Shown piece after piece: positions 318 to 13,249 of a stretch of DNA of 64,000 nt. How positions within the stretch are numbered: position 1 is the first letter of the stretch; each line of letters begins with the position of its first letter. Below the pieces are notes generated by a model. It made no database searches. It was not told where the DNA came from and was given only the letters and a program-made list of their open reading frames with translations. The DNA lies in NCBI GenBank assembly GCA_964593235.1, contig CAZQGS010000026.1:22133-86132 (forward strand). Reading direction: 5' to 3'. The translations under genes were made by a program, and so were the position numbers. Source of the stretch: an uncultured Gemmatimonadota bacterium. GTDB taxonomy: Bacteria > JAAXHH01.

Positions 318-3013
<2,696 letters not shown>

Positions 3014-3085: not shown

Positions 3086-5569
3086 ATGGCGGTAGAACAA
3101 CACGATAATATTCAGCCCATTTTTATCGAAGACGAAATGAAAAGTTCTTATCTCGACTTCTCCATGAGCGTAAATCTGTCTCGGGCGATTCCAGATGTAC
3201 GGGACGGATTCAAGCCATCACAACGGCGTATACTTGTGGCGATGCGTGATCTGAACCTTACACCCAGCAGGCCCACCCGTAAATGCGCCAAAATCGTCGG
3301 GCAAACAATAGGTGATTACCATCCACATGGTGATCTTGCTGTTTATGATACCCTAGCTCGGATGGCACAGCCTTTTAGTATGCGCTATCCGATGGTTTTT
3401 GGCCAAGGGAATTTCGGGTCCATAGATGGCGATCCACCAGGAGCTATGCGTTACACTGAATCTAGAATGTCCCGTTTGGCTATTGAAATGATGGAGGATA
3501 TTGACAAAAACACAGTTAATTTCATGCCTAATTATGATGAATCTAAAGATGAGCCTACGGTATTGCCGGGGAAGTTTCCTAATCTTCTTTGTAACGGGTC
3601 TCTTGGTATCGGTGTTGGCATGGCTTCTAGTTTACCTTCTCATAATCTTAGTGAGGTAGTAGATGGAATTGTTGGGGTAATAGAAAATCCTGAGATATCG
3701 ATAGATGAAATCGCTGAGAAAATAAAAGGACCAGATTTTGCTACAGGAGCTATAATTTATGGTCGGAATGCAATACAAGAATACTTCAATACTGGTCGTG
3801 GCAAGGTTAAGGTCCGTGCAAGAACCCAAATCGAAACTCACGAACAAAACGAAAAAGAAACAATCGTCATAACCGAGATTCCTTATAAAGTTAACAAATC
3901 AACTCTGATTGAAAAAATTGCTGATCTAGTTCGTGAAAAGCAAATACTGGGAATTACAGATATCAGAGATGAGTCTGATCGATCTGGCCTCCGAATTGCT
4001 ATAGATGTACGAAGGGATATTCCAGCCAACATTATACTAAATCATCTTTTCAAAATGACTCCTCTCGAAACAACTATTGGGGTCACAATGTTGGCTTTGG
4101 TTGATGGTCGACCTAGGGTATTAAATATTAAGGAATGTATTCAACACTTTATTGACCACCGCCATGAAGTATTAGTCAGGCGTACATCTTTCGACCTTGA
4201 GAAAGCCGAACAACGTGCTCACATTGTTGAAGGTTTAAGGGTGGCTCTGGATAATGTGGATCGTGTTATCGAGATATTGCGAAGTTCTCAGACCGGCGAG
4301 GAAGCTATGACAGTTCTTTTGAGCGAATTTGGATTGTCACGGGCTCAGGTAGAAGCAATTCTAGATATGCGACTTCAGCGATTGACAGGTTTAGAAAGAA
4401 ATAAACTAGAGGACGAATACAATGAACTTGTCGCTCAAATTAGTGATTTCAAGGATATTCTATCTCAGTTGCCCCGCCGGATGCAAATTATAAAAGAAGA
4501 GATGATTGAACTTAAAGAAAAATATGGCGATGATAGAAGAACCGAATTAATCGATATAGAAGGTGATCTAAGTATTGAAGACTTAATAGCAGATGAGGAA
4601 ATGGTTATAACCATTTCTCACGCTGGTTACATCAAACGGATCCCCATGGATACTTATACGAGCCAAAATCGTGGTGGTAAGGGTATTACAGGAATGAAAA
4701 CGCGCGATGAAGATTTTGTAGAGCACCTGTTTTCTGCATCAACTCATTCGTATATACTGTTCTTTACAAACCGTGGTAAATGCTACTGGCTGAAGGTTTG
4801 GGAGATACCAGAAGCTGGACGAACTGCCCGTGGCAAAGCGATGGTGAATTTACTTGAACTTGGTCAGGGGGAAAGTATAGCAGCTTTCCTTCCAATTCGG
4901 ACCTTCGATGACGAACATTATATTATGATGGTTACACGAGGCGGGCTTGTGAAAAAGACCGTTCTTTCGGCTTATGGAAATCCTCGAAAGAACGGGATTG
5001 TTGCTTTGAATATCCTCGAAGGAGATGCACTTATCGAAGCATTATTAACTAGTGGAGATAATGACATTGTTATTGCTAGCCGTAATGGCCAAGCTGTTCG
5101 ATTCCACGAGGCTGATGTTCGGACAATGGGAAGAGGTGCCCAAGGTGTTAGGGGCATCCGGCTTGCAGAGGGAGATAGAGTCGTTGGAATGCTAGCTTCT
5201 GATCGGGATGCTACCTTGCTTTCCGTTACTGAAAATGGATATGGTAAAAGAACAGATATCGAAAATTATCGCTTAACCCGAAGAGCAAGCAAGGGCGTTA
5301 GTAACATCCGAACCAGTGAGCGGAATGGATTGGTCGTATCGATCCATGCAGTTGCTGACAAAGATGAACTTATGATCATTACTATGAATGGTCTGATTAT
5401 CCGTCTTTCAGTCAGTGACTTACGTCCTATAGGTAGAAATACCCAAGGTGTTAAATTGATAAACCTTGGTGAGGGAGACCGAGTAATAGATATTTCTAAG
5501 ATTACGCCCAATGAAGAAGAAAAATCAGAAGACATAGAAAACACTAATTCGTCAGAGCAAGCAGACTAA
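3086..5569 (+). CDS. gyrA: DNA gyrase subunit A
   Basis: 827 aa. N-terminal RAIPDVRDGFKPSQRRIL, QRDR-equivalent region, active-site Tyr context (AMRYTESRM), C-terminal beta-pinwheel repeats, acidic tail. Confidence 0.97.
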   Translation: MAVEQHDNIQPIFIEDEMKSSYLDFSMSVNLSRAIPDVRDGFKPSQRRILVAMRDLNLTPSRPTRKCAKIVGQTIGDYHPHGDLAVYDTLARMAQPFSMRYPMVFGQGNFGSIDGDPPGAMRYTESRMSRLAIEMMEDIDKNTVNFMPNYDESKDEPTVLPGKFPNLLCNGSLGIGVGMASSLPSHNLSEVVDGIVGVIENPEISIDEIAEKIKGPDFATGAIIYGRNAIQEYFNTGRGKVKVRARTQIETHEQNEKETIVITEIPYKVNKSTLIEKIADLVREKQILGITDIRDESDRSGLRIAIDVRRDIPANIILNHLFKMTPLETTIGVTMLALVDGRPRVLNIKECIQHFIDHRHEVLVRRTSFDLEKAEQRAHIVEGLRVALDNVDRVIEILRSSQTGEEAMTVLLSEFGLSRAQVEAILDMRLQRLTGLERNKLEDEYNELVAQISDFKDILSQLPRRMQIIKEEMIELKEKYGDDRRTELIDIEGDLSIEDLIADEEMVITISHAGYIKRIPMDTYTSQNRGGKGITGMKTRDEDFVEHLFSASTHSYILFFTNRGKCYWLKVWEIPEAGRTARGKAMVNLLELGQGESIAAFLPIRTFDDEHYIMMVTRGGLVKKTVLSAYGNPRKNGIVALNILEGDALIEALLTSGDNDIVIASRNGQAVRFHEADVRTMGRGAQGVRGIRLAEGDRVVGMLASDRDATLLSVTENGYGKRTDIENYRLTRRASKGVSNIRTSERNGLVVSIHAVADKDELMIITMNGLIIRLSVSDLRPIGRNTQGVKLINLGEGDRVIDISKITPNEEEKSEDIENTNSSEQAD

Positions 5570-5588
5570 GCGAAATAATAAAAAGCCC

Positions 5589-5616
5589 TTGACACAGTTG
5601 CCTCGAGCAATATATT
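5589..5616 (+). promoter_or_regulatory. sigma70-like promoter for lysW (TTGACA 5589-5594, 16-nt spacer, TATATT 5611-5616)
   Basis: Near-consensus -35/-10 hexamers about 65 nt upstream of the lysW ATG. A GGGAGG Shine-Dalgarno at 5670-5675 precedes the ATG at 5681. Confidence 0.5.
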
Positions 5617-5680
5617 GCGTCCGTTCTTACTCAGGAGACTTTGCAAAACCATCGATGATATAGCATAAAGGGAGGAAATT

Positions 5681-5845
5681 ATGGGAGCCTGCCCGGAATG
5701 TGGTGCTGCGACAAACTTAAATGATGATGTTGTGGAAGGCGAAATAATAGAGTGTGAAGAATGTGGAGCAGAACTTGAGGTAGTAAGTATAAATCCCCTG
5801 GAACTTGCGTTGGCGCCTGAAGAGGAAGAAGACTGGGGAGAATAA
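5681..5845 (+). CDS. lysW: LysW amino-group carrier protein (alpha-aminoadipate/glutamate carrier), 54 aa; below ORF-track size cutoff
   Basis: Translation [54 protein letters not shown]. It has the N-terminal CPxCG...CExCG zinc-ribbon and the acidic tail ending in the diagnostic EDWGE C-terminus, whose terminal Glu is the substrate attachment site in LysW. Strong SD, and lysX/Y/Z/J/K homologues lie immediately downstream. Confidence 0.9.
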
Positions 5846-5899
5846 TTTTTGGTTTGTAATAGATTAACTTCGTTTTCAGAAGGAACAAGAGAGATTGAA

Positions 5900-5977
5900 A
5901 TGAGCAAACGAATGAAACATAAACATGAAAATCATGATTGTGATTTACGTTTGTCCGCTCATCACAGTCCAGGTTAG
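5900..5977 (+). other. Candidate 25-codon leader mini-ORF (MSKRMKHKHENHDCDLRLSAHHSPG) between lysW and lysX
   Basis: ATG preceded by a purine-rich GAGAG. 5 His and 3 Lys codons in 25. Its stop codon lies inside a CCAGGTT/AACCTGG hairpin (5969-5998), just upstream of a strong terminator. Could be chance. Confidence 0.25.
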
Positions 5978-6015
5978 TTCAAGAAACGGAAAACCTGGAT
6001 AAAAAGGAACTGATA

Positions 6016-6066
6016 GGAGCCGCGTTCCTCTTCAGATTTGAGCGAAGAGGCCGGCTCCTTTTTTAT
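6016..6066 (+). terminator. Intrinsic terminator/attenuator hairpin between lysW and lysX
   Basis: GGAGCCG..TTCCTCTTC / GAAGAGG..CGGCTCC form a 14-bp interrupted stem (6016-6058) followed by TTTTTTATGTTGTT. Confidence 0.7.
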
Positions 6067-6094
6067 GTTGTTAATCGGGGATAGGGTCAAATAA

Positions 6095-6946
6095 ATGGAA
6101 ATAGGTATTGTATTGTCAAGGATCCGTAAGGATGAGAAACGACTGATTTCAGAGGCTAGTCATCGAGGATTCGGTGTTACAACTATTGACAACACTCAAC
6201 AGGTATTCAAACTGAATAGTTGTCCTGACAGTTTTGATGTAGTGCTAGAACGTTGTGTAGATCACCATAGGGCGGTTTATGTGCTAAGCTTATTCGACTA
6301 TTGGGGGATACCAACAGTGAACCAACAGTCCGTTGTTGAAACTTACGGAAATCGTTTGTTGACAAATCTGGCATTAAAAGACAATGGAGTACCTTTTCCT
6401 GAAGTCAGGTTAGCTTATACGCCAGGGTCTGCCTTAGAAGCTATGGAAACTATTGGATACCCTATTGTACTGAGGCCGGTTGAGGGATCAGGGAATCAAC
6501 TAGTCTCTCGTATCCAAGAAAAACATACGGCAGCCACTATCCTAGAGCATAAGAGGATTTTGGGTACCTATCATCATTCAATATTTTTTATTCAAAAATA
6601 TATTGAAAGCCCAGGCCATGATATCCGCGCATTCGTTGTTGGTGATCAAACAGTCGCTGCCATATCCGTATTAACCCACCACTGGATAGGATCAATTGCT
6701 GACGGTGGTCTAGTAGAGAACGAACCGGTTACAGAAGAATTAAATCAAATTGCTGTTTCTGCTGTTAAGGCTATTGGTGGGGGCATAGCTGTTGTTGATA
6801 TGATCCGTACAAAAACCCAGTGGTATGTTCAAGAGATGGGCCCACCAACAGGGCTGTCTGAAGCATCTGATGTTACGGGAGTTAATATACCCCAGAAAAT
6901 CATTGAATATGTGGCTAATATTGTGGAACAAGGAGGGAAAGTATAA
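6095..6946 (+). CDS. lysX: LysW--substrate ligase, ATP-grasp RimK/LysX family (LysX or ArgX paralogue 1)
   Basis: 283 aa, RimK-type ATP-grasp fold ([21 protein letters not shown]..., [10 protein letters not shown]). First enzyme gene after lysW. The stop overlaps the start of the next paralogue. Confidence 0.8.
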
Positions 6947-7785
6947 TGAAGATAGGCATGTTACTTTCTATTGTTTCCAAAGAACAGAAAATGTTATTTG
7001 AAGCTGCTAGCAAACGTGGTGTTTGTTTCGAAAGATTGGATGACCGGCGCCTCATATTTGACCTTGAGAATCAAAAGTATAATCATGATGTGATTCTTGA
7101 AAGGTGCATCAATCACTCAAGAGCCCTCTATTCTTTAAGAATACTTAATGCTAGCGGCATTAAAACTGTTAATTCGTATGATGTAGCGCGTATCTGTGGA
7201 AACAAATTTTTGACAACGATGGCATTGGTTAATAACAATGTTCCGACACCCAAGGCTTGTGTTGCTTTTACGGCGGAGTCTGCCCTTGATGCTATAGAAT
7301 CTATGGGATACCCAGTTGTGCTCAAACCACCCATAGGTTCCTGGGGTCGCCTAATCGCGCGGATTAATGACCGTAATGCAGCAGAATCGGTGCTCGAACA
7401 TAAGGAGACATTAGGATCTTTTCATCATTCAGTGTTTTACATTCAGGAGTACGTTGATAAACCAGGACGGGATATACGTTCCTTCGTAATTGACGGGCAG
7501 ACTATTTGTGCTATTTATCGTTATTCCGATCATTGGAAAACTAATACTGCTCTGGGAGGAACAGTAGCTGCTTGCCCAGTAGATGGAGATGTAGGAAAAT
7601 TGTCTATTCAGGCTGCCGAGGCAGTGGGCGGGGATGTTGTAGCTGTAGACCTGCTGGAATCTCCAGATGGTATAGTTGTCAACGAAGTTAATTATACAAT
7701 GGAATTTCGGAACAGTATACAACCTACCGGGGTAGATATTCCGGGACGAATTATCGATTATTTGATAAAGGTAGCTCAATCATGA
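6946..7785 (+). CDS. Second ATP-grasp LysX/ArgX-family ligase (paralogue 2)
   Basis: 279 aa, colinear with the previous protein ([21 protein letters not shown]..., [10 protein letters not shown]). Tandem duplicate. Two ligases with a single Z/Y/J/K set resembles the LysX+ArgX architecture. Confidence 0.8.
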
Positions 7786-8825
7786 TTAAAGTCTCTATCG
7801 TTGGTGCTTCTGGATACGGCGGCGGAGAGTTGTTACGTCTTCTTCTTGCTCACTCTGAAATAGAGATTCAGCAGGTTACTTCTGAATCGTTAGTTGGTAA
7901 ACCTGTTGGACGTTCTCATCCAAATCTACGTAGGCTTACTGACCTAAAATTCCATGCTATGGATGATTTAAAACCCTGTGACGTTATTTTTCTATGCCTA
8001 CCGCATGGGGAAGCTATGAAACAATGGGACTCGCTGTCTGGTCTTGCTGATCGTGTTATTGATCTAAGTGCCGATTTTCGCCTTCGCAATCCATTGGACT
8101 ACCCAATTTGGTACGGGCATGAACATACCAAGCCGGGAGTATTGAATCACTTTGTGTATGGTTTAGCCGAATTATACCGAGAAGAAATTAGGAATGCTGA
8201 ATTTGTGGCCTGTACGGGATGCTTAGCTGCTACAGCCATCCTATCTTTGGCGCCTTTGGTCAAGACTGGTAGTATCGATCCTTCAAGGTTATTTTTGGAA
8301 GGGAAAATTGGTTCGTCAGCAGGTGGTAATAAATCAGATCACTCCACTCACCATCCCGAGCGGAGTGGCTCTGTACGATCATTCAAGCCAACAGGCCATA
8401 GGCACACAGCGGAAGTAATACAGGAGTTAACTGTCGATGGGCAGGTTCCCCAGGTCCATTTTTCTGCGACAGCAATAGAAATGGTGCGAGGAATCCTGAT
8501 GACAAGCCATGTTTTTGTAGATAAGGATTTATCCGAAAGAGAAATTTGGGAGATTTACAGAGAAGTTTACGAAAACGAGCCTTTTATTCGTATTATTAAA
8601 GAACGGAATGGTATTTACCGATATCCCGATCCAAAAATCCTCTCAGGTACTAATTTTTGTGATATTGGATTTGAACGAGATAAGCACAGTGATCGTTTAG
8701 TAGTCCTAGGTGCCTTAGATAACCTAGTTAAAGGAGCTGCTGGACAGGCTGTTCAGGCTATTAATATAATGCATGGATGGGATGAGCAGACAGGTTTACA
8801 ATTTCCTGGGTTGCACCCTATATAG
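7782..8825 (+). CDS. lysY: [LysW]-aminoadipyl/glutamyl-phosphate reductase (ArgC/LysY family)
   Basis: 347 aa. [24 protein letters not shown](P)-binding N-terminus. A Cys is present in the region ([17 protein letters not shown]) where ArgC/LysY carry their catalytic Cys. ArgC-like C-terminus. Overlaps the upstream gene by 4 nt. Confidence 0.85.
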
Positions 8826-8831
8826 GAATTC

Positions 8832-10100
8832 ATGATGAACTACAAAGCACCTAGAGGCACCTACGATATCTTGCCCGAAGATCAATCCTATTGGCGTTAC
8901 GTGATCGAAACAACACATCGTGTTTGCCGGCTTTATGGTTACGAGCAAATAGATGTTCCAATATTCGAGCAGACGAACCTCTTCAAAAGGAGCGTTGGTG
9001 AATCCACAGATATTGTAGAAAAAGAGATGTATACCTTTGTTGATCGTAGTGATGAGAGTATGACTTTGCGTCCTGAATTAACTGCGGGCATCTGCCGAGC
9101 CTATGTTGAACGTAAACTTCATGGGCGGCCACAACCGTTAAAGTTTTTTACGATTGGCCCGGCGTTTAGGTATGAACGTCCTCAGGCTGGTCGTTATCGT
9201 CAGTTCTATCAGCTAGACGTTGAGGCTTTAGGTAGCCAGGATCCAGCTATAGACATAGAGATTATGCAAGTGGCATGGCAGATTTACGAGGAAATTGGTT
9301 TAGGTGGATTATCTTTCCAAGTTAATAGTACCGGATGTCCCGAATGCCGTCCAGGATATCTTAGCCTTCTTAAAGAATGGTACGAATCCCGTATATCAGG
9401 TCTTTGTCAAGACTGCCAGCGACGCTACGGACAGAATCTACTCAGATTGTTAGATTGTAAAAATGAAGCCTGCCGAGAAATATCTGATAGAGCTCCGAAG
9501 ATTACCGCTGCATTATGTGGCGACTGTGGCAATCATTTTGAAGAATTGAGATCTTATTTGGATATATTGAAACGTCCGTATGAGGTTAATCATCGGCTTG
9601 TTCGAGGATTAGACTACTATACAAAGACGGTATTTGAAGTCTGGGCCTCTGGCATTGGTGCTCAAAATGCGGTAAGTGGAGGTGGACGTTATGACGGCTT
9701 AGTTAAAGTGATAGGCGGTCCCGAAACCCCAGCAATAGGTTTTGCTTCGGGGATAGAACGTATTATCCTCGCAATGAAACAAGAAGGTATTATTCCTCCG
9801 GAACTGGCTAACCCAAAAGTTTTTATCGCTTACATTGGAACGGCTGCAAAATCAGCTGCTGTCCTTTTAGTGCAGGAACTTCGAAGTGGAGGAATCAGTG
9901 TGGCTGCTCTTTGGGATGATCGTAGTCTAAAATCTCAAATGAAGCAGGCAGATCGGGTTGGAGCAACATACACTGTAATCATAGGTAATAATGAAATAAC
10001 AAGTGGCAAATATATATTGCGAAGGATGGGAGAAAGCGCCCAGATTGTTTTAAGTCCTTCGGAAATTTTGCCAAGGTTAAAAGATGGAGATTTCTCATGA
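8832..10100 (+). CDS. hisS: Histidyl-tRNA synthetase (class II), embedded in the lys operon
   Basis: 422 aa. HisRS signature PRGTYDILPED near the N-terminus, class II motifs (TLRPELTAG, FRYERPQAGRYRQFYQ), HisRS-specific Cys-rich insertion, C-terminal anticodon-binding domain. Its stop overlaps the lysZ start (ATGA). Confidence 0.85.
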   Translation: MMNYKAPRGTYDILPEDQSYWRYVIETTHRVCRLYGYEQIDVPIFEQTNLFKRSVGESTDIVEKEMYTFVDRSDESMTLRPELTAGICRAYVERKLHGRPQPLKFFTIGPAFRYERPQAGRYRQFYQLDVEALGSQDPAIDIEIMQVAWQIYEEIGLGGLSFQVNSTGCPECRPGYLSLLKEWYESRISGLCQDCQRRYGQNLLRLLDCKNEACREISDRAPKITAALCGDCGNHFEELRSYLDILKRPYEVNHRLVRGLDYYTKTVFEVWASGIGAQNAVSGGGRYDGLVKVIGGPETPAIGFASGIERIILAMKQEGIIPPELANPKVFIAYIGTAAKSAAVLLVQELRSGGISVAALWDDRSLKSQMKQADRVGATYTVIIGNNEITSGKYILRRMGESAQIVLSPSEILPRLKDGDFS

Positions 10101-10894
10101 TCGTGATCAAAACAGGAGGGAGTAGAGGTATTAATATTGATTACGTTCTTGCGGATCTTGCTTTTCAAACAGAGCCACTTGTGTTTTTGCATGGGGCGTC
10201 TGACGAATTAAATCAAATATCCGAGCGGCTAGGTAAACCTCCTCGAATGGTCACATCGCCTTCTGGGTACACCAGTAGGTACACCGACTCAGGAACCCTT
10301 GATATTTTTAATATGGTATACTGTGGTAAAATAAACACTCGTATCGTTGAAAAACTTCACCAACTGGGGGTTAATGCTGTTGGACTAAGTGGTGTTGATG
10401 GTAGACTTCTTGAGGGTAAAAGAAAATCTACTGTCCGTATCATTGAGGAAGGGAAGAAGAAACTGCTTAGAAATGATTTTACGGGGCGTGTTGAAAAGGC
10501 GAACGTAAATCTTCTTACACTTCTTCTTGGCCAAGGTTATCTACCAGTCGTCAGTCCTCCGGCTATTAGTTATGAAGGTGAAATTATCAATGTCGACGGC
10601 GATAGGGCTGCTGCCGTGATAGCAGAGGGACTCGGAGCTGATAGGTTAATTATACTCTCTAATACACCAGGTTTTCTGAAAGATGCGGATGCCGAAGAGA
10701 CCTTAATACCACGGCTTAACCGAGATGATATTGACGATGTGATAAGGAAATATGCAAGAGGCCGGATGAAGAAGAAACTACTGGGTGCTCGGGAAGCCCT
10801 AGAGGCAGGTGTGGGTACGGTGATTCTTGGTGATGGTCGTATACCCAATCCAGTTACATTAGCTTTGCAGGGTAAGGGCACCGTAATTACGTAG
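10097..10894 (+). CDS. lysZ: [LysW]-aminoadipate/glutamate kinase (ArgB/LysZ amino-acid kinase family)
   Basis: 265 aa. MIVIKTGGS opening and GASDEL..., VVSP..NVDGDRAAAVIAEGLGADRLIILSNTPG AAK-family motifs. Confidence 0.85.
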   Translation: MIVIKTGGSRGINIDYVLADLAFQTEPLVFLHGASDELNQISERLGKPPRMVTSPSGYTSRYTDSGTLDIFNMVYCGKINTRIVEKLHQLGVNAVGLSGVDGRLLEGKRKSTVRIIEEGKKKLLRNDFTGRVEKANVNLLTLLLGQGYLPVVSPPAISYEGEIINVDGDRAAAVIAEGLGADRLIILSNTPGFLKDADAEETLIPRLNRDDIDDVIRKYARGRMKKKLLGAREALEAGVGTVILGDGRIPNPVTLALQGKGTVIT

Positions 10895-10956
10895 GGAAAA
10901 TAAAAATTAATGGTTGTATAGCATAAAGATTGGGATGATAACAGGGGGCAAAAGCC

Positions 10957-12150
10957 ATGATACAGTACAAGGAGATGGAAGATAAAGTCTCTATGGGAAT
11001 TTTGCCAAAGAGAGACGTCGTAATTGTCCGTGGGAAAGGTACCAGATTATGGGATACCGAAGGCAAGGAGTATATTGATTGTGTAGGAGGACATGGGACA
11101 GCGAATATCGGTCATAATCATCCGGTTGTTGTAGAGGCGTTGGTTCGTCAGGCGGAGCAACTTATGATATGTCCCGATATGTTTTATAATAATGTAAGGG
11201 CCAAATTAGTAACAACATTAGCCCAAGTAGCTCCGGCAGGACTAGACCGTCTTTATTTGTGTAACTCAGGGACAGAAGCGGTGGAAGCAGCATTGAAATT
11301 CGCTCGTGTGGCAACTAAGAGAACAGGAGTGATCGCAGCGCAAAGAGGTTTTCACGGGCGGACTTTTGGAGCTCTAAGTGCAACCTGGAATCCTAAATAT
11401 CGAAAGCCATTTCAACCTCTTGTACCAGGTTTCTCTCACGTAAAGTATAACGACATGCAGGCGATTGATTCTGCTATAGATGATGGCACAGCCGCCGTTA
11501 TTTTAGAAGTAGTTCAGGGAGAAGGTGGTGTGCGCCTAGGTACCGAAAGCTACTTAAAGAAAGTGGAAGCCCTTTGCCGAAACCGGGGTTCATTATTGAT
11601 ATTAGATGAAGTGCAAACAGGTTTTGGCAGAACAGGTACTATGTTTGCCTGCCAGCACTACGATATACAGCCAGATATTATCTGCGTTGCTAAAGCAATG
11701 GCAGGTGGATTGCCAGTAGGAGCGGTCCTCTGTTCTGATTTGGTTAAAGAAATTCCAACGATGTCTCACGGTAACACCTTTGGTGGTAGCCCTATTGTCT
11801 GCGCGGCTGCTTTGGGTACGTTGAGTGTACTACAAAACTCAGGGATAATCCAAAATGCCCGAGAGATGGGGATCTATTTTAGAGAACGACTTGAAACACT
11901 AGACCTCAGGATTATCCGAGAGATTCGAGGTCTAGGCCTTATGATTGGACTAGAACTGAAAAGCCGAGTTTCACCGGTATTGAAAGGTCTTATGGACCAT
12001 GGTATATTAGCTTTGCCAGCAGGCAACACAGTACTACGTTTCTTGCCACCTCTATCAATAACAGCAGATGACATTGATCAGGTCGTAGATGCTCTAAAAA
12101 TAGTACTGAAGCCACTGGATAAAATTTCAACAGAAGAATCCACAGAATAA
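10957..12150 (+). CDS. lysJ: Class III PLP aminotransferase (ArgD/LysJ family)
   Basis: 397 aa. GTEAVEAALKFAR, DEVQTGFGRTG, PLP-Lys region (ICVAKAMAGGLP), SHGNTFGGSP. Confidence 0.85.
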   Translation: MIQYKEMEDKVSMGILPKRDVVIVRGKGTRLWDTEGKEYIDCVGGHGTANIGHNHPVVVEALVRQAEQLMICPDMFYNNVRAKLVTTLAQVAPAGLDRLYLCNSGTEAVEAALKFARVATKRTGVIAAQRGFHGRTFGALSATWNPKYRKPFQPLVPGFSHVKYNDMQAIDSAIDDGTAAVILEVVQGEGGVRLGTESYLKKVEALCRNRGSLLILDEVQTGFGRTGTMFACQHYDIQPDIICVAKAMAGGLPVGAVLCSDLVKEIPTMSHGNTFGGSPIVCAAALGTLSVLQNSGIIQNAREMGIYFRERLETLDLRIIREIRGLGLMIGLELKSRVSPVLKGLMDHGILALPAGNTVLRFLPPLSITADDIDQVVDALKIVLKPLDKISTEESTE

Positions 12151-12202
12151 CTAGGATTAGACTGTTCTGTAGGTAAAGATCAATTTAGGGTAGGGAATAT
12201 AA

Positions 12203-13249
12203 ATGAGTGTTCAATGTGACGACCTGGACTTATTGCGTGGCCTAGTCGATCATTACAGTCCTTCTAGGCAAGAAGAAGATGCAGTATCTTTTCTAGTCGA
12301 ATCGATGGAACAGAGAGGTATAAATTCTTATATTGATGGGGCGGGAAATGCAGTTGGGGAAGTGGGTGATGGTTCCCCACATATTGCTCTCGTCGGGCAT
12401 ATAGATACTGTGAAGGGGATTATTCCCGTCCGAGAGAAATCTGGTCGTCTTTACGGTCGTGGAACAGTAGATGCTAAGGGTCCCCTCGCCACATTTGTGG
12501 CGGCCGTGTCTCGGTTTACTAAACTCGATCAAGGTAGGATTACAGTTGTAGGTGCTGTGGAAGAAGAGTGTCCGACATCACGAGGTGCCCGATATCTTGT
12601 TAATCAAATGAAACCAGATCATGTATTTATTGGTGAACCTAGCGGTTGGGATAGTATCACTATAGGATATAAGGGTATCGTTGGTTTCAATTTCAAGTTA
12701 AAACAATCTAATGCTCATTTTGCTGGCAATAATTTACGTTCGGGAGACAAAGCAATAACATTTTATAACAATCTTTTATCCTACCTTAACCAACATGAAA
12801 TCAAGAGTGAATTTGGATCTCCTCGACTTGAACTAAGGAGAATTAATACTCTTGATGAAGGGTTAACAGAAAATGTAGAGGCCTATTTTTCAGTGCGCAT
12901 TCCTCCTGGATATGGAGTGGAAAATCTTATTAACTTTATAGGAGTTCAGTCAGGAGATGCTGAAATAGAATGTGATCAGAAACTAGAGGGTATTATTGCG
13001 AAAAAAAATACTCCGCTAGTCCGGGCTTTGTTGCAAGGCATTCGTCAAGAGGGTGGGCAACCAACTTTCAAGAAAAAGACTGGCACTTCAGATATGTGTG
13101 TCATCGGTCCGGAATGGAAATGCCCCATCGTAGCATATGGTCCAGGAGATTCTAGTTTAGATCATACACCAGACGAACATATAATACTCGATGATTATCT
13201 TCGATCTATCCAAGTAATGACAAATGCGTTAAAATCCCTAATATTATGA
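12203..13249 (+). CDS. lysK: [LysW]-lysine/ornithine hydrolase, M20 (ArgE/DapE/LysK) family
   Basis: 348 aa. HIALVGHIDTV metal-binding motif, GRGTVDAKGPLA, M20 dimerisation-domain insertion. Last gene of the colinear block. Confidence 0.8.
   Translation: MSVQCDDLDLLRGLVDHYSPSRQEEDAVSFLVESMEQRGINSYIDGAGNAVGEVGDGSPHIALVGHIDTVKGIIPVREKSGRLYGRGTVDAKGPLATFVAAVSRFTKLDQGRITVVGAVEEECPTSRGARYLVNQMKPDHVFIGEPSGWDSITIGYKGIVGFNFKLKQSNAHFAGNNLRSGDKAITFYNNLLSYLNQHEIKSEFGSPRLELRRINTLDEGLTENVEAYFSVRIPPGYGVENLINFIGVQSGDAEIECDQKLEGIIAKKNTPLVRALLQGIRQEGGQPTFKKKTGTSDMCVIGPEWKCPIVAYGPGDSSLDHTPDEHIILDDYLRSIQVMTNALKSLIL

What the first reader, a model, noticed from the sequence alone, without database searches (positions are those of the whole stretch)
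5846..6094. His/Lys-rich mini-ORF plus strong intrinsic terminator between lysW and the enzyme genes: possible attenuator or differential-expression device
The 250-nt lysW-lysX spacer holds a 25-codon ORF (MSKRMKHKHENHDCDLRLSAHHSPG; 5 His, 3 Lys) whose stop sits inside a CCAGGTT/AACCTGG hairpin. About 40 nt later comes a 14-bp GC-rich hairpin with a U-tract (6016-6066). Two readings are possible. (a) A constitutive partial terminator gives the stoichiometric carrier a higher mRNA level than the catalytic enzymes. (b) Ribosome-mediated attenuation, as reported for the Thermus lys cluster leader with tandem Lys codons. The His codons are intriguing because hisS is embedded in the same operon.
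Basis: partly seen in the sequence, partly recalled or inferred. Interest (0 to 1): 0.55.

Follow-up and report, generated by a model that had tools for sequence, protein, structure and literature searches.

The report
Lys/His-rich leader ORF plus internal terminator
Between the lysine-carrier gene lysW and the enzyme genes sits a conserved 25-codon mini-gene rich in lysine and histidine codons, followed by a strong transcription stop signal; this is most likely an amino-acid-sensing attenuator of a familiar kind in an uncultured bacterial lineage, but its switch mechanism is unproven.

Summary
The 249-nt lysW-lysX spacer holds a 25-codon ORF (5900-5977), two hairpins (H1 5900-5963, H2 5967-6000) and a terminator (6015-6059, six U).

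The element is conserved:
- All 39 lysW-lysX spacers from relatives with LysX at least 59% identical carry a terminator there. None of 9 longer spacers from distant relatives does.
- All 29 spacers of the two nearer groups have an ORF of exactly 25 codons. In 28 of them the run AAA-CAT-AAA-CAT (Lys-His-Lys-His) is intact.
- The stop codon stays at codon 26 but varies (TAG, TAA, TGA).
- Relatives with GC3 near 0.85 keep the rare AAA, CAT and GAT codons.
- H1 pairs the ORF's own start codon and shows compensatory changes.
- hisS lies inside the operon in every locus that reaches that far.

Best reading: a ribosome-mediated attenuator that responds to Lys and His codon translation, laid over a clade-wide internal terminator that also lets lysW outnumber the enzyme transcripts.

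Main weakness: I found no convincing antiterminator, and ten relatives keep the terminator without the ORF. No Rfam family matches. I rate it a new member of a known kind, of moderate interest.

The parts
5589..5616 (+). Promoter-like site TTGACA-16-TATATT upstream of lysW; the likely start of the transcript that carries the element
   Evidence: 11 of 12 consensus matches. Consensus match only; function is inferred.
5681..5845 (+). lysW, the amino-group carrier protein (54 aa)
   Evidence: TIGR01206 lysW, 69.4 bits against a cutoff of 53.2.
5880..5894 (+). Purine-rich Shine-Dalgarno-like tract (AAGGAACAAGAGAGA) ending 5 nt before the mini-ORF start
   Evidence: sequence. Relatives have AGGAAA or GGGAAA 7-8 nt before the ATG. 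L007 and L020 carry a 6-nt in-frame insertion (ATGAAG) that puts a new in-frame ATG at the usual spacing from this tract.
5900..5977 (+). Leader mini-ORF: 25 codons plus TAG, encoding MSKRMKHKHENHDCDLRLSAHHSPG
   Evidence: All 23 main-group sequences have 25 codons, and the stop is at codon 26 as TAG, TAA or TGA. All 6 distinct spacers of a second group also have 25 codons with different nucleotides.
5915..5926 (+). AAA CAT AAA CAT (Lys-His-Lys-His), the candidate regulatory codons
   Evidence: Invariant in the main group. Present in the L022 group two codons further on, with one sequence (L088) reading CCT in place of the first CAT. Single copy per locus. AAA and CAT are the rare synonyms in the GC-rich relatives.
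5900..5963 (+). Hairpin H1. The 5' arm holds the start codon through the Lys/His codons; the 3' arm is codons 12-21. AUG pairs with CAU.
   Evidence: Lower stem across both groups: 88.5% of cells paired against 20-46% when slid, 3 pairs with changes on both sides, and 0 of 500 shuffles reach the covariation score.
5967..6000 (+). Hairpin H2, which contains the mini-ORF's last codons and its stop codon in the 5' strand
   Evidence: z = -3.85. A hairpin forms at this position in all 20 distinct main-group variants with different apical stems, and the stop codon always lies in the 5' strand.
6007..6028 (+). Small pre-terminator hairpin GGAAC (6007-6011) : GUUCC (6024-6028), which uses part of the terminator's 5' arm. 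Weak antiterminator candidate.
   Evidence: Forms in every fold truncated before the 3' arm, whatever the ribosome position. No clear covariation.
6015..6064 (+). Intrinsic terminator: stem 6015-6059 with a 10-nt loop (6034-6043), then TTTTTT (6059-6064)
   Evidence: -23.9 kcal/mol, z = -3.3. A terminator-like hairpin with at least five U is present in 39 of 39 clade spacers and 0 of 9 distant spacers.
6039..6046 (+). Loop-to-3'-arm junction of the terminator (UGAGCGAA). It is complementary to the H1 3' arm (CGCUCA, 5957-5962). Candidate target of an antiterminator pairing.
   Evidence: 6 bp in 14 of 21 and 8 bp in 7 of 21 main-group sequences, with a conserved loop. Significance is weak: p = 0.005-0.27 and duplex z near 0.
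6095..13249 (+). Genes downstream of the terminator: LysX paralogue 1 (6095-6946), LysX (6946-7785), lysY/argC (7782-8825), hisS (8832-10100), lysZ (10097-10894), lysJ (10957-12150), lysK (12203-13249)
   Evidence: NCBIfam. Only 28-30 nt separate the U-run from the lysX ATG, so these genes must be transcribed through the terminator.

Best explanation
The spacer is a two-layer control device inside the lysW operon.

**Layer 1 (conserved in the whole clade).** A strong intrinsic terminator follows lysW. Every transcript makes the carrier LysW, but only transcripts that read through make the enzymes and HisRS.

**Layer 2 (the window's lineage and one sister group).** A translated 25-codon leader ORF lies just upstream of the terminator.
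- With no ribosome, or after fast translation, the ORF RNA folds on itself. H1 pairs the start codon and the Lys-His-Lys-His codons with codons 12-21. H2 then forms, the terminator forms, and transcription stops.
- When charged tRNA-Lys or tRNA-His is scarce, a ribosome stalls on AAA-CAT-AAA-CAT. H1 stays open and its 3' arm is free.
- The freed arm, possibly by pairing with the terminator loop junction UGAGCG(AA), hinders the terminator. RNA polymerase then continues into lysX, lysX, lysY, hisS, lysZ, lysJ and lysK.

**Status of each step.**
- Shown: the anatomy, the conservation of frame and structure, and the universality of the terminator in the clade.
- Inferred: translation of the ORF, stalling at these codons, and the link between an open H1 and read-through.
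For: 1. **The terminator is under selection.** It is present in 39 of 39 spacers from relatives with LysX at least 59% identical. Several unrelated stem sequences are used. None of 9 distant spacers of 65-223 nt has one. Among distant relatives, 24 of 52 have lysW and lysX no more than 30 nt apart.
2. **The downstream genes need read-through.** Only 28-30 nt separate the U-run from the lysX ATG.
3. **The ORF behaves as a reading frame.**
   - It is exactly 25 codons in 23 of 23 main-group sequences and in all 6 distinct L022-group spacers.
   - The stop at codon 26 switches among TAG, TAA and TGA.
   - The ORF has no indels, although the flanks do.
   - A 6-nt in-frame insertion in L007 and L020 puts a new in-frame ATG at the usual spacing from the purine tract.
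   - A purine tract precedes the ATG.
4. **Lys-His-Lys-His is the shared coding feature** of two groups whose peptides otherwise match at about 7 of 25 positions.
5. **The peptide itself is not strictly conserved.** Positions 5, 10, 11, 19, 21, 23 and 25 vary. By contrast, AAA (3), CAT (4) and GAT (2) are fixed in genomes whose lysX has GC3 of 0.76-0.91 and prefers AAG, CAC and GAC. This is the pattern of a leader under both codon and RNA constraints.
6. **The ORF is more conserved than its neighbour.** Nucleotide identity between the window and relatives is 84% for the ORF and 67% for lysX.
7. **H1 is real.** 88.5% of cells are paired against 20-46% when slid, with compensatory changes at three pairs. 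H2 is a hairpin in all 20 distinct main-group variants, with differing apical stems.
8. **The geometry fits.** A ribosome with Lys-His-Lys-His in its decoding centre would cover the whole 5' arm of H1.
9. **The regulated genes match the codons.** The LysW-pathway genes lie downstream, and hisS is embedded in them in the relatives that reach that far.
10. **There is precedent.** His-codon leader peptides were predicted upstream of hisS paralogues in bacilli (PMC2965389).
Against: - **No antiterminator demonstrated.**
   - Constrained minimum-energy folds keep the terminator whether the ribosome is placed on the Lys/His codons or on the stop codon.
   - In folds truncated before the 3' arm, the terminator's 5' arm forms the same small local hairpin in all states.
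   - The best candidate, the H1 3' arm pairing with the terminator loop junction, is 6-8 bp. It is not clearly above chance: p = 0.005-0.27 and duplex z near 0.
   - The candidate is absent from three of the five L022-group sequences tested.
- **Ten relatives keep the terminator without this ORF** (L024-26, L082, L085, L086, L091 and L100-102). The terminator therefore works without the leader. L099 also lacks a KHKH ORF before its terminator; its small ORF lies after the terminator.
- **Only two Lys and two His codons are adjacent.** This is few compared with the classical his leader.
- **H1 hides the leader's own start codon**, which is unusual for attenuators.
- **There are no expression data.**
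- **hisS may be partly independent in the window.** A promoter-like site (8741-8770) could give hisS its own transcription start.
Confidence: 0.5

Rival explanations
1. The terminator is a constitutive, partial terminator. Its only job is to give the stoichiometric carrier LysW more mRNA than the catalytic enzymes. The mini-ORF does not control it; the ORF is incidental, or it affects only stability or translation of the short lysW transcript.
For: - The terminator is clade-wide (39 of 39).
- Ten relatives have it without this ORF. Two of them (L100, L101) have only about 45 nt between lysW and the terminator.
- No antiterminator could be demonstrated.
- Internal operon attenuators that set subunit ratios are established, for example between rplL and rpoB in E. 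coli (own knowledge).
Against: - It leaves the strongest signals unexplained: the 25-codon frame kept in two diverged groups, the stop kept through TAG/TAA/TGA changes, the fixed Lys-His-Lys-His run in rare codons, and the in-frame insertion.
- A hairpin of -21 to -30 kcal/mol with 6-10 U in front of seven needed genes, including hisS, would be costly if it were never relieved.
Confidence: 0.25
2. The mini-ORF encodes a sensing (arrest) peptide. The nascent chain, together with a small molecule such as lysine, ornithine, arginine or a metal bound by its His/Cys residues, stalls the ribosome near the stop codon inside H2. This changes downstream folding or termination, as with TnaC, SpeFL or CruR.
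For: - The stop codon is always inside H2, so a ribosome held there keeps H2 open.
- With H2 open, its 3' arm can extend the pre-terminator hairpin by 0 to 5 kcal/mol (median about 3) in the 21 sequences folded.
- The peptide is rich in His, with Cys and Asp.
- Pro24 is kept in the main group through a synonymous CCG/CCA change.
- Leader peptides that sense ornithine, tryptophan or copper are described in PMC12360218.
Against: - The C-terminal residues vary: positions 23 and 25 within the main group, and the whole tail between groups. These residues matter most in known arrest peptides.
- Induction by an end product is the wrong logic for a biosynthetic operon.
- No similarity to TnaC or SpeFL beyond three or four residues.
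Confidence: 0.08
3. H1, H2 and the terminator form a structured RNA that is read by a trans-acting factor, or that acts itself as a small RNA released by termination. The factor could be an RNA-binding protein such as HisRS or a pathway regulator. The ORF would be secondary.
For: - The stems are conserved in sequence, not only in pairing.
- The terminator loop is conserved.
- The H1 3' arm contains GAUUGUGAUU, which matches from memory the core of the E. coli tRNA-His anticodon arm.
- Attenuator-derived small RNAs are known (PMC12612679).
Against: - The L022 group keeps the ORF, the Lys-His-Lys-His run and the H1 lower stem, but not the GAUUGUGAUU sequence.
- That sequence is simply the wobble complement of the two CAU codons it pairs with.
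- Frame conservation, the stop-codon switches and the in-frame insertion point to translation.
- No Rfam family matches, including T-box, at E up to 10.
Confidence: 0.1
4. The mini-ORF is an ordinary small-protein gene, for example a metal-binding micro-protein that works with the zinc-ribbon protein LysW, with its own terminator.
For: - There is a start codon, a purine tract and a conserved frame.
- His, Cys and Asp residues are conserved in the main group.
Against: - The codon usage is the opposite of the host's. All Lys, His and Asp codons are the rare synonyms in relatives with GC3 of 0.76-0.91.
- Only about 7 of 25 residues are shared between the two groups.
- Seven positions vary freely within the main group.
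- No protein in the 5.8-billion-sequence collection shares three 5-residue words with a 40-aa query. The query was a made-up 15-residue N-terminal extension plus the main-group consensus peptide. Such short ORFs are rarely called as genes, so this is weak evidence.
Confidence: 0.07

Closest known systems
Leader-peptide attenuator of the Thermus thermophilus lysine (alpha-aminoadipate) gene cluster (Tsubouchi et al., J Biol Chem 2005). Cited from my own knowledge; the paper is not in the searchable library.
   Same: A short leader ORF with Lys codons and a terminator controlling genes of the same LysW-type lysine pathway.
   Different: - The Thermus leader lies in front of the cluster, not between lysW and lysX.
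- It has tandem Lys codons only, with no His codons and no hisS in the operon.
- I could not compare the sequences.
- The lineage is different (Deinococcota, against uncultured bacteria labelled Gemmatimonadota or Latescibacterota).
His operon leader hisL of Enterobacteria (Rfam His_leader), and the His-codon leader peptides predicted upstream of hisS paralogues and hisZ in bacilli (PMC2965389)
   Same: A short ORF with His codons before an intrinsic terminator. In bacilli this is linked to a histidyl-tRNA synthetase-family gene.
   Different: - Here there are only two adjacent His codons, interleaved with Lys codons, against a run of seven in hisL.
- No six-segment alternative pairing was found.
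- No Rfam match, even at E up to 10.
- The element sits inside an operon.
Multivalent attenuators (the thr leader with Thr and Ile codons; the ilv leaders) and the pheM leader of pheST. Own knowledge.
   Same: One leader senses more than one amino acid. In pheST, an aminoacyl-tRNA synthetase is controlled by a leader peptide that lies behind upstream genes.
   Different: - The amino acids differ.
- A biosynthetic pathway and an unrelated synthetase (hisS) sit under one leader.
- The leader's own start codon is sequestered in H1.
Internal operon attenuators that set expression ratios, such as the partial terminator between rplL and rpoB in E. coli. Own knowledge.
   Same: An intrinsic terminator inside an operon, placed after a gene whose product is needed in larger amounts.
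   Different: Here most clade members also carry a conserved translated mini-ORF immediately upstream of the terminator.

Membership tests
Ribosome-mediated (leader-peptide) transcription attenuator | A short ORF with a ribosome-binding site lying directly upstream of an intrinsic terminator | tested here: met
   ORF 5900-5977, purine tract 5880-5894, terminator 6015-6064.
Ribosome-mediated (leader-peptide) transcription attenuator | The ORF is kept as a reading frame in relatives | tested here: met
   25 codons in all 29 spacers of two groups. The stop at codon 26 appears as TAG, TAA or TGA. The only indel is a 6-nt in-frame insertion.
Ribosome-mediated (leader-peptide) transcription attenuator | Clustered codons for the amino acid(s) served by the regulated genes | tested here: met
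   AAA-CAT-AAA-CAT is kept in both groups (one L022-group sequence, L088, has CCT in place of the first CAT). The downstream genes are the LysW-pathway enzymes and hisS. The cluster is short: two Lys and two His codons.
Ribosome-mediated (leader-peptide) transcription attenuator | A hairpin that a ribosome stalled on the regulatory codons would disrupt (segments 1:2) | tested here: met
   The 5' arm of H1 carries the regulatory codons. The H1 lower stem is supported by covariation.
Ribosome-mediated (leader-peptide) transcription attenuator | An antiterminator (2:3) that excludes the terminator and uses the segment freed by stalling | tested here: inconclusive
   The only candidate is a 6-8 bp pairing of the H1 3' arm with the terminator loop junction. 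p = 0.005-0.27 and duplex z near 0. Constrained folds always keep the terminator.
Ribosome-mediated (leader-peptide) transcription attenuator | Read-through rises when the cognate charged tRNA is scarce | not testable with these tools
   The organism is uncultured and no transcript data are available here.
Rfam His_leader, other Rfam amino-acid leader families, T-box and the lysine riboswitch | A match to the family covariance model | tested here: not met
   No match at gathering scores in the whole window. Within 5000-7000 at E up to 10, only five chance-level matches to unrelated eukaryotic or sRNA families.
Constitutive internal (ratio-setting) terminator | An intrinsic terminator between a high-demand gene and lower-demand genes of one operon, with no promoter behind it | tested here: met
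   Present in 39 of 39 clade spacers. 28-30 nt separate the U-run from lysX. Whether termination is partial and unregulated cannot be tested here.

The most novel reading that the evidence does not exclude
The element is a bivalent Lys+His attenuator, possibly trivalent for all basic amino acids given the conserved Lys/Arg-Arg at codons 3-4 and the ArgX-like LysX paralogue. One leader would couple a carrier-protein amino-acid pathway and histidyl-tRNA synthetase. It would work by an unusual route: the strand released from the ORF hairpin captures the loop of the terminator rather than its 5' arm. It would also divide the operon into an always-on carrier part and a starvation-induced enzyme part.
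Probability: 0.25. Interest if true: 0.6.

Novelty: new member of a known kind. Interest (0 to 1): 0.45.

Why it matters
- **A new leader family.** If confirmed, it adds a leader-peptide attenuator family in an uncultured lineage, where none is known to me. The related genomes are labelled Gemmatimonadota or Latescibacterota, and several appear from their isolate names to come from sponges.
- **An internal position.** It would show that such leaders can sit inside an operon, splitting a stoichiometric carrier gene from the catalytic genes.
- **An explanation for hisS.** It offers a reason why hisS travels with the LysW operon: a shared control by Lys and His codon translation.
- **An annotation aid.** It provides a marker (25 codons, Lys-His-Lys-His, terminator) for a spacer that gene callers leave empty.
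- **A caution.** The lack of a clear antiterminator, and the relatives with a bare terminator, show that a mini-ORF next to a terminator is not proof of attenuation.

Tried and rejected
- **Rfam.** The whole window at gathering thresholds gave nothing. Region 5000-7000 at E up to 10 gave only chance-level matches. No T-box, lysine riboswitch or leader family matched.
- **Repeat or mobile element.** The spacer has no other copy in the window. The Lys-His-Lys-His motif is single-copy in the window and in each locus.
- **Classical antiterminator search.**
  - I folded 9 representatives with a ribosome footprint forced single-stranded, on the Lys/His codons or on the stop. I did this for full-length transcripts and for transcripts cut before the terminator's 3' arm. 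The terminator always formed, and the 5' arm made the same local hairpin in every state.
  - RNAalifold on sub-blocks suggested the H1 3' arm pairs with the terminator loop. Shuffle tests did not support it strongly.
  - A long-range helix between the start of the spacer and the region before the terminator stood out only in L022 (z = -3.0). It was ordinary elsewhere.
  - A his-type B:C / D:E scheme found no conserved complementarity when inspected by eye. The helix enumeration also found none.
- **tRNA-His anticodon-arm mimic (GAUUGUGAUU).** Rejected. The flanks do not form a stem, the L022 group lacks it, and it is the complement of the CAU codons.
- **Other genomic contexts.** A metagenome pattern scan gave 6 hits, of which only 2 were real. 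Both were in the same lysW-lysX position and nearly identical to L022.
- **Protein search with the peptide.** A 40-aa version found no candidate.
- **Promoter between the terminator and lysX.** There is no room in the window (28-30 nt).
- **Thermus lysine leader paper.** It is not in the library.

Full report
**1. What is there**

Gene order in the window:

| Feature | Coordinates |
|---|---|
| gyrB | 635-3013 |
| gyrA | 3086-5569 |
| Promoter-like site TTGACA-16-TATATT | 5589-5616 |
| lysW | 5681-5845 |
| Spacer (249 nt) | 5846-6094 |
| LysX-type ligase, paralogue 1 | 6095-6946 |
| LysX-type ligase, paralogue 2 | 6946-7785 |
| lysY/argC | 7782-8825 |
| hisS | 8832-10100 |
| lysZ | 10097-10894 |
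| lysJ | 10957-12150 |
| lysK | 12203-13249 |

The spacer contains, in order:
- A purine-rich tract, 5880-5894.
- A 25-codon ORF, 5900-5977, encoding MSKRMKHKHENHDCDLRLSAHHSPG.
- Hairpin H1, 5900-5963, formed by the ORF itself.
- Hairpin H2, 5967-6000, which holds the stop codon.
- A hairpin at 6015-6059, followed by six U.

The whole spacer folds at z = -4.75. H2 folds at z = -3.85 and the terminator at -23.9 kcal/mol, z = -3.3.

**2. Not a known RNA family and not a repeat**

- Rfam gives no match at gathering scores in the whole window. At E up to 10 around the spacer, only chance-level hits to unrelated families appear.
- The spacer has no second copy in the window.

**3. Relatives**

I searched one genome per species with an alignment of the first LysX paralogue. 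This returned 80 loci.
- The 26 closest (59-78% LysX identity) are metagenome-assembled genomes labelled Gemmatimonadota, Latescibacterota or simply "bacterium". Several appear from their isolate names to come from sponges.
- Sixteen more contigs came from exact-protein look-ups.

Spacer length separates the clade from the rest:
- Distant relatives (42-48% identity): 24 of 52 have lysW and lysX no more than 30 nt apart, and only one spacer exceeds 150 nt.
- Within the clade, the spacer is 131-289 nt.
- All 39 clade spacers examined contain a hairpin followed by at least five U. None of 9 distant spacers of 65-223 nt does.
- The terminator stems differ between subgroups, so the terminator itself is under selection.

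**4. Three spacer types in the clade**

1. **Main group**: the window plus 22 loci, LysX 73-78% identical. ORF, H1, H2 and terminator are arranged as in the window.
2. **L022 group**: six distinct spacers (L022, L081, L088, L089, L090, L097) plus the truncated L095, about 65% identical.
   - The ORF is again exactly 25 codons, for example MNRRTKFKHKHIWDNTHSSVRTVHL, with different nucleotides.
   - It folds into one long hairpin that also pairs the Shine-Dalgarno region with the ORF's 3' end, and a terminator follows.
3. **Ten further spacers** (59-64%), which have a hairpin and terminator but no such ORF. L099 is an eleventh: it carries a different 27-codon ORF after the terminator, and it starts MSKSM much like the main-group leader.

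**5. Evidence that the ORF is read as codons**

- All 23 main-group sequences have 25 codons, and the stop at codon 26 appears as TAG, TAA or TGA.
- The ORF has no indels, while the flanking parts of the spacer do.
- The one exception is a 6-nt in-frame insertion in L007 and L020. It puts a new in-frame ATG at the usual distance from the purine tract.
- The second group keeps the same length and the run Lys-His-Lys-His. Only about 7 of 25 residues are otherwise shared.

**6. Evidence that the RNA also matters**

- The relatives are GC-rich: lysX GC3 is 0.76-0.91, with AAG, CAC and GAC preferred. Yet the ORF invariably uses AAA (3 times), CAT (4 times) and GAT (twice).
- Several peptide positions change freely (5, 10, 11, 19, 21, 23, 25), and the H1 loop codons vary.
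- The window's ORF is 84% identical in nucleotides to the relatives, against 67% for lysX.
- On an ungapped alignment of both groups, the H1 lower stem is 88.5% paired, against 20-46% when the partner is slid. Three pairs change on both sides, and the start codon pairs with codon 21.
- H2 forms in all 20 distinct main-group variants with different apical stems, and the stop codon always lies in its 5' strand.

A fixed frame, fixed regulatory codons, a loosely conserved peptide and a conserved hairpin are together what leader-peptide attenuators show.

**7. Fit to the regulated genes**

- hisS passes the equivalog cutoff (478 bits against 287).
- It lies between lysY and lysZ in the window and in every relative that reaches that far.
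- Lys and His codons therefore match the downstream functions.
- The first LysX paralogue scores below the LysX cutoff and may be ArgX-like. Codons 3-4 are Lys/Arg-Arg in both groups, so arginine could also be sensed. This is speculation.

**8. The weak point: the switch**

- With a footprint forced on the Lys/His codons or on the stop codon, minimum-energy folds still form the terminator.
- In transcripts cut before the 3' arm, the 5' arm always forms the same small hairpin, GGAAC:GUUCC.
- RNAalifold pairs the end of the H1 3' arm (CGCUCA) with the terminator loop junction (UGAGCG).
  - This is 6 bp in 14 of 21 main-group sequences and 8 bp (UUCGCUCA:UGAGCGAA) in 7 of 21.
  - The loop is unusually conserved and resembles the H1 5' arm.
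  - Such a pairing would be topologically incompatible with closing the stem.
  - However, shuffle tests give only p = 0.005-0.27, and duplex energies are ordinary.
  - It is absent from three of the five L022-group sequences tested.
- In the L022 group, a segment before the terminator can pair either with an upstream near-copy of the terminator's 5' arm or with that arm itself. This stands out only in L022 (z = -3.0).

The antiterminator is therefore unresolved.

**9. Verdict**

- The element is real, conserved and almost certainly functional.
- The best explanation, at about 0.5, is a leader-peptide attenuator responding to Lys and His codon translation. It sits on top of a clade-wide internal terminator that also lets lysW transcripts outnumber enzyme transcripts.
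- The main rival, at about 0.25, is a purely constitutive ratio-setting terminator. The relatives that lack the ORF support it.
- Sensing-peptide, trans-factor and small-protein readings are less likely.
- It is closest to the Thermus lysine-cluster leader (own knowledge) and to His leaders, including those predicted upstream of hisS paralogues (PMC2965389). It matches no curated family.
- I file it as a new member of a known kind, of moderate interest.

Noticed in passing
window 8741-8770: A promoter-like site TGGACA-18-TATAAT (11 of 12 matches) lies in the last codons of lysY, about 60 nt before the hisS start. In GC-rich relatives the same codons read CGGACA...CATCAT. It may therefore be a by-product of AT-rich codon use, but it could give hisS its own promoter in this organism.
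   Followed up: partly
window 6095-6946 and 6946-7785: Two tandem LysX-type ATP-grasp genes with overlapping stop and start. The first scores below the LysX equivalog cutoff (243.7 against 275.6) and the second above it (332). This looks like an ArgX/LysX pair, so the operon may serve both lysine and arginine or ornithine.
   Followed up: no
window 8832-10100; L081, L082, L086, L022, L024, L026: A bona fide hisS sits between lysY and lysZ. This placement is conserved in all three groups of the clade.
   Followed up: partly
L081:4122-4309, L082:5741-5937, L086:5747-5957: Some relatives have an extra 188-211 nt gap between lysY and hisS. It carries a shared motif (GCGAAUGGG ... GUUCGUAYCCAU) that resembles the 3' strand of the L022-type leader. 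L081 has an Arg-rich 25-codon ORF there (MNKQRRRQRMGRGRGTGSNPVRIHG). This may be a second, related leader placed directly before hisS.
   Followed up: partly
L024-L026, L082, L085, L086, L091, L100-L102 (lysW-lysX spacers): These relatives keep a strong terminator between lysW and lysX but lack the Lys/His ORF. L100 and L101 have only about 45 nt and one small hairpin before it.
   Followed up: partly
L099:1260-1500: Here a 27-codon ORF (MSKSMGGRGKGVRLFAYSPIRFLLHPF) lies after the terminator and ends 9 nt before lysX. It begins like the main-group leader and also folds back on its own start region. The region before the terminator keeps a remnant of the H1 3' arm (GATGTGATATTGC).
   Followed up: no
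L009, L010, L015, L023 (between terminator and lysX): Two or three tandem units of about 20 nt lie between the terminator and the lysX start. In L009, L010 and L015 the unit is ACGCGGGATATCCGAAAGG, which contains a GGATATCC palindrome. L023 instead repeats GACGCGGGC. Their purpose is unknown.
   Followed up: no
window as a whole, compared with L001-L023: The window is 41% GC, and its lysX has GC3 of 0.33. Its closest relatives have lysX GC of 61-67% and GC3 of 0.76-0.91, with the same gyrB-gyrA-lysW synteny. This is a large compositional shift within one clade.
   Followed up: no
window 5937-5946: GATTGTGATT in the H1 3' arm equals, from memory, the core of the E. coli tRNA-His anticodon arm. 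It is most simply the wobble complement of the two CAT codons it pairs with, and the L022 group lacks it.
   Followed up: partly
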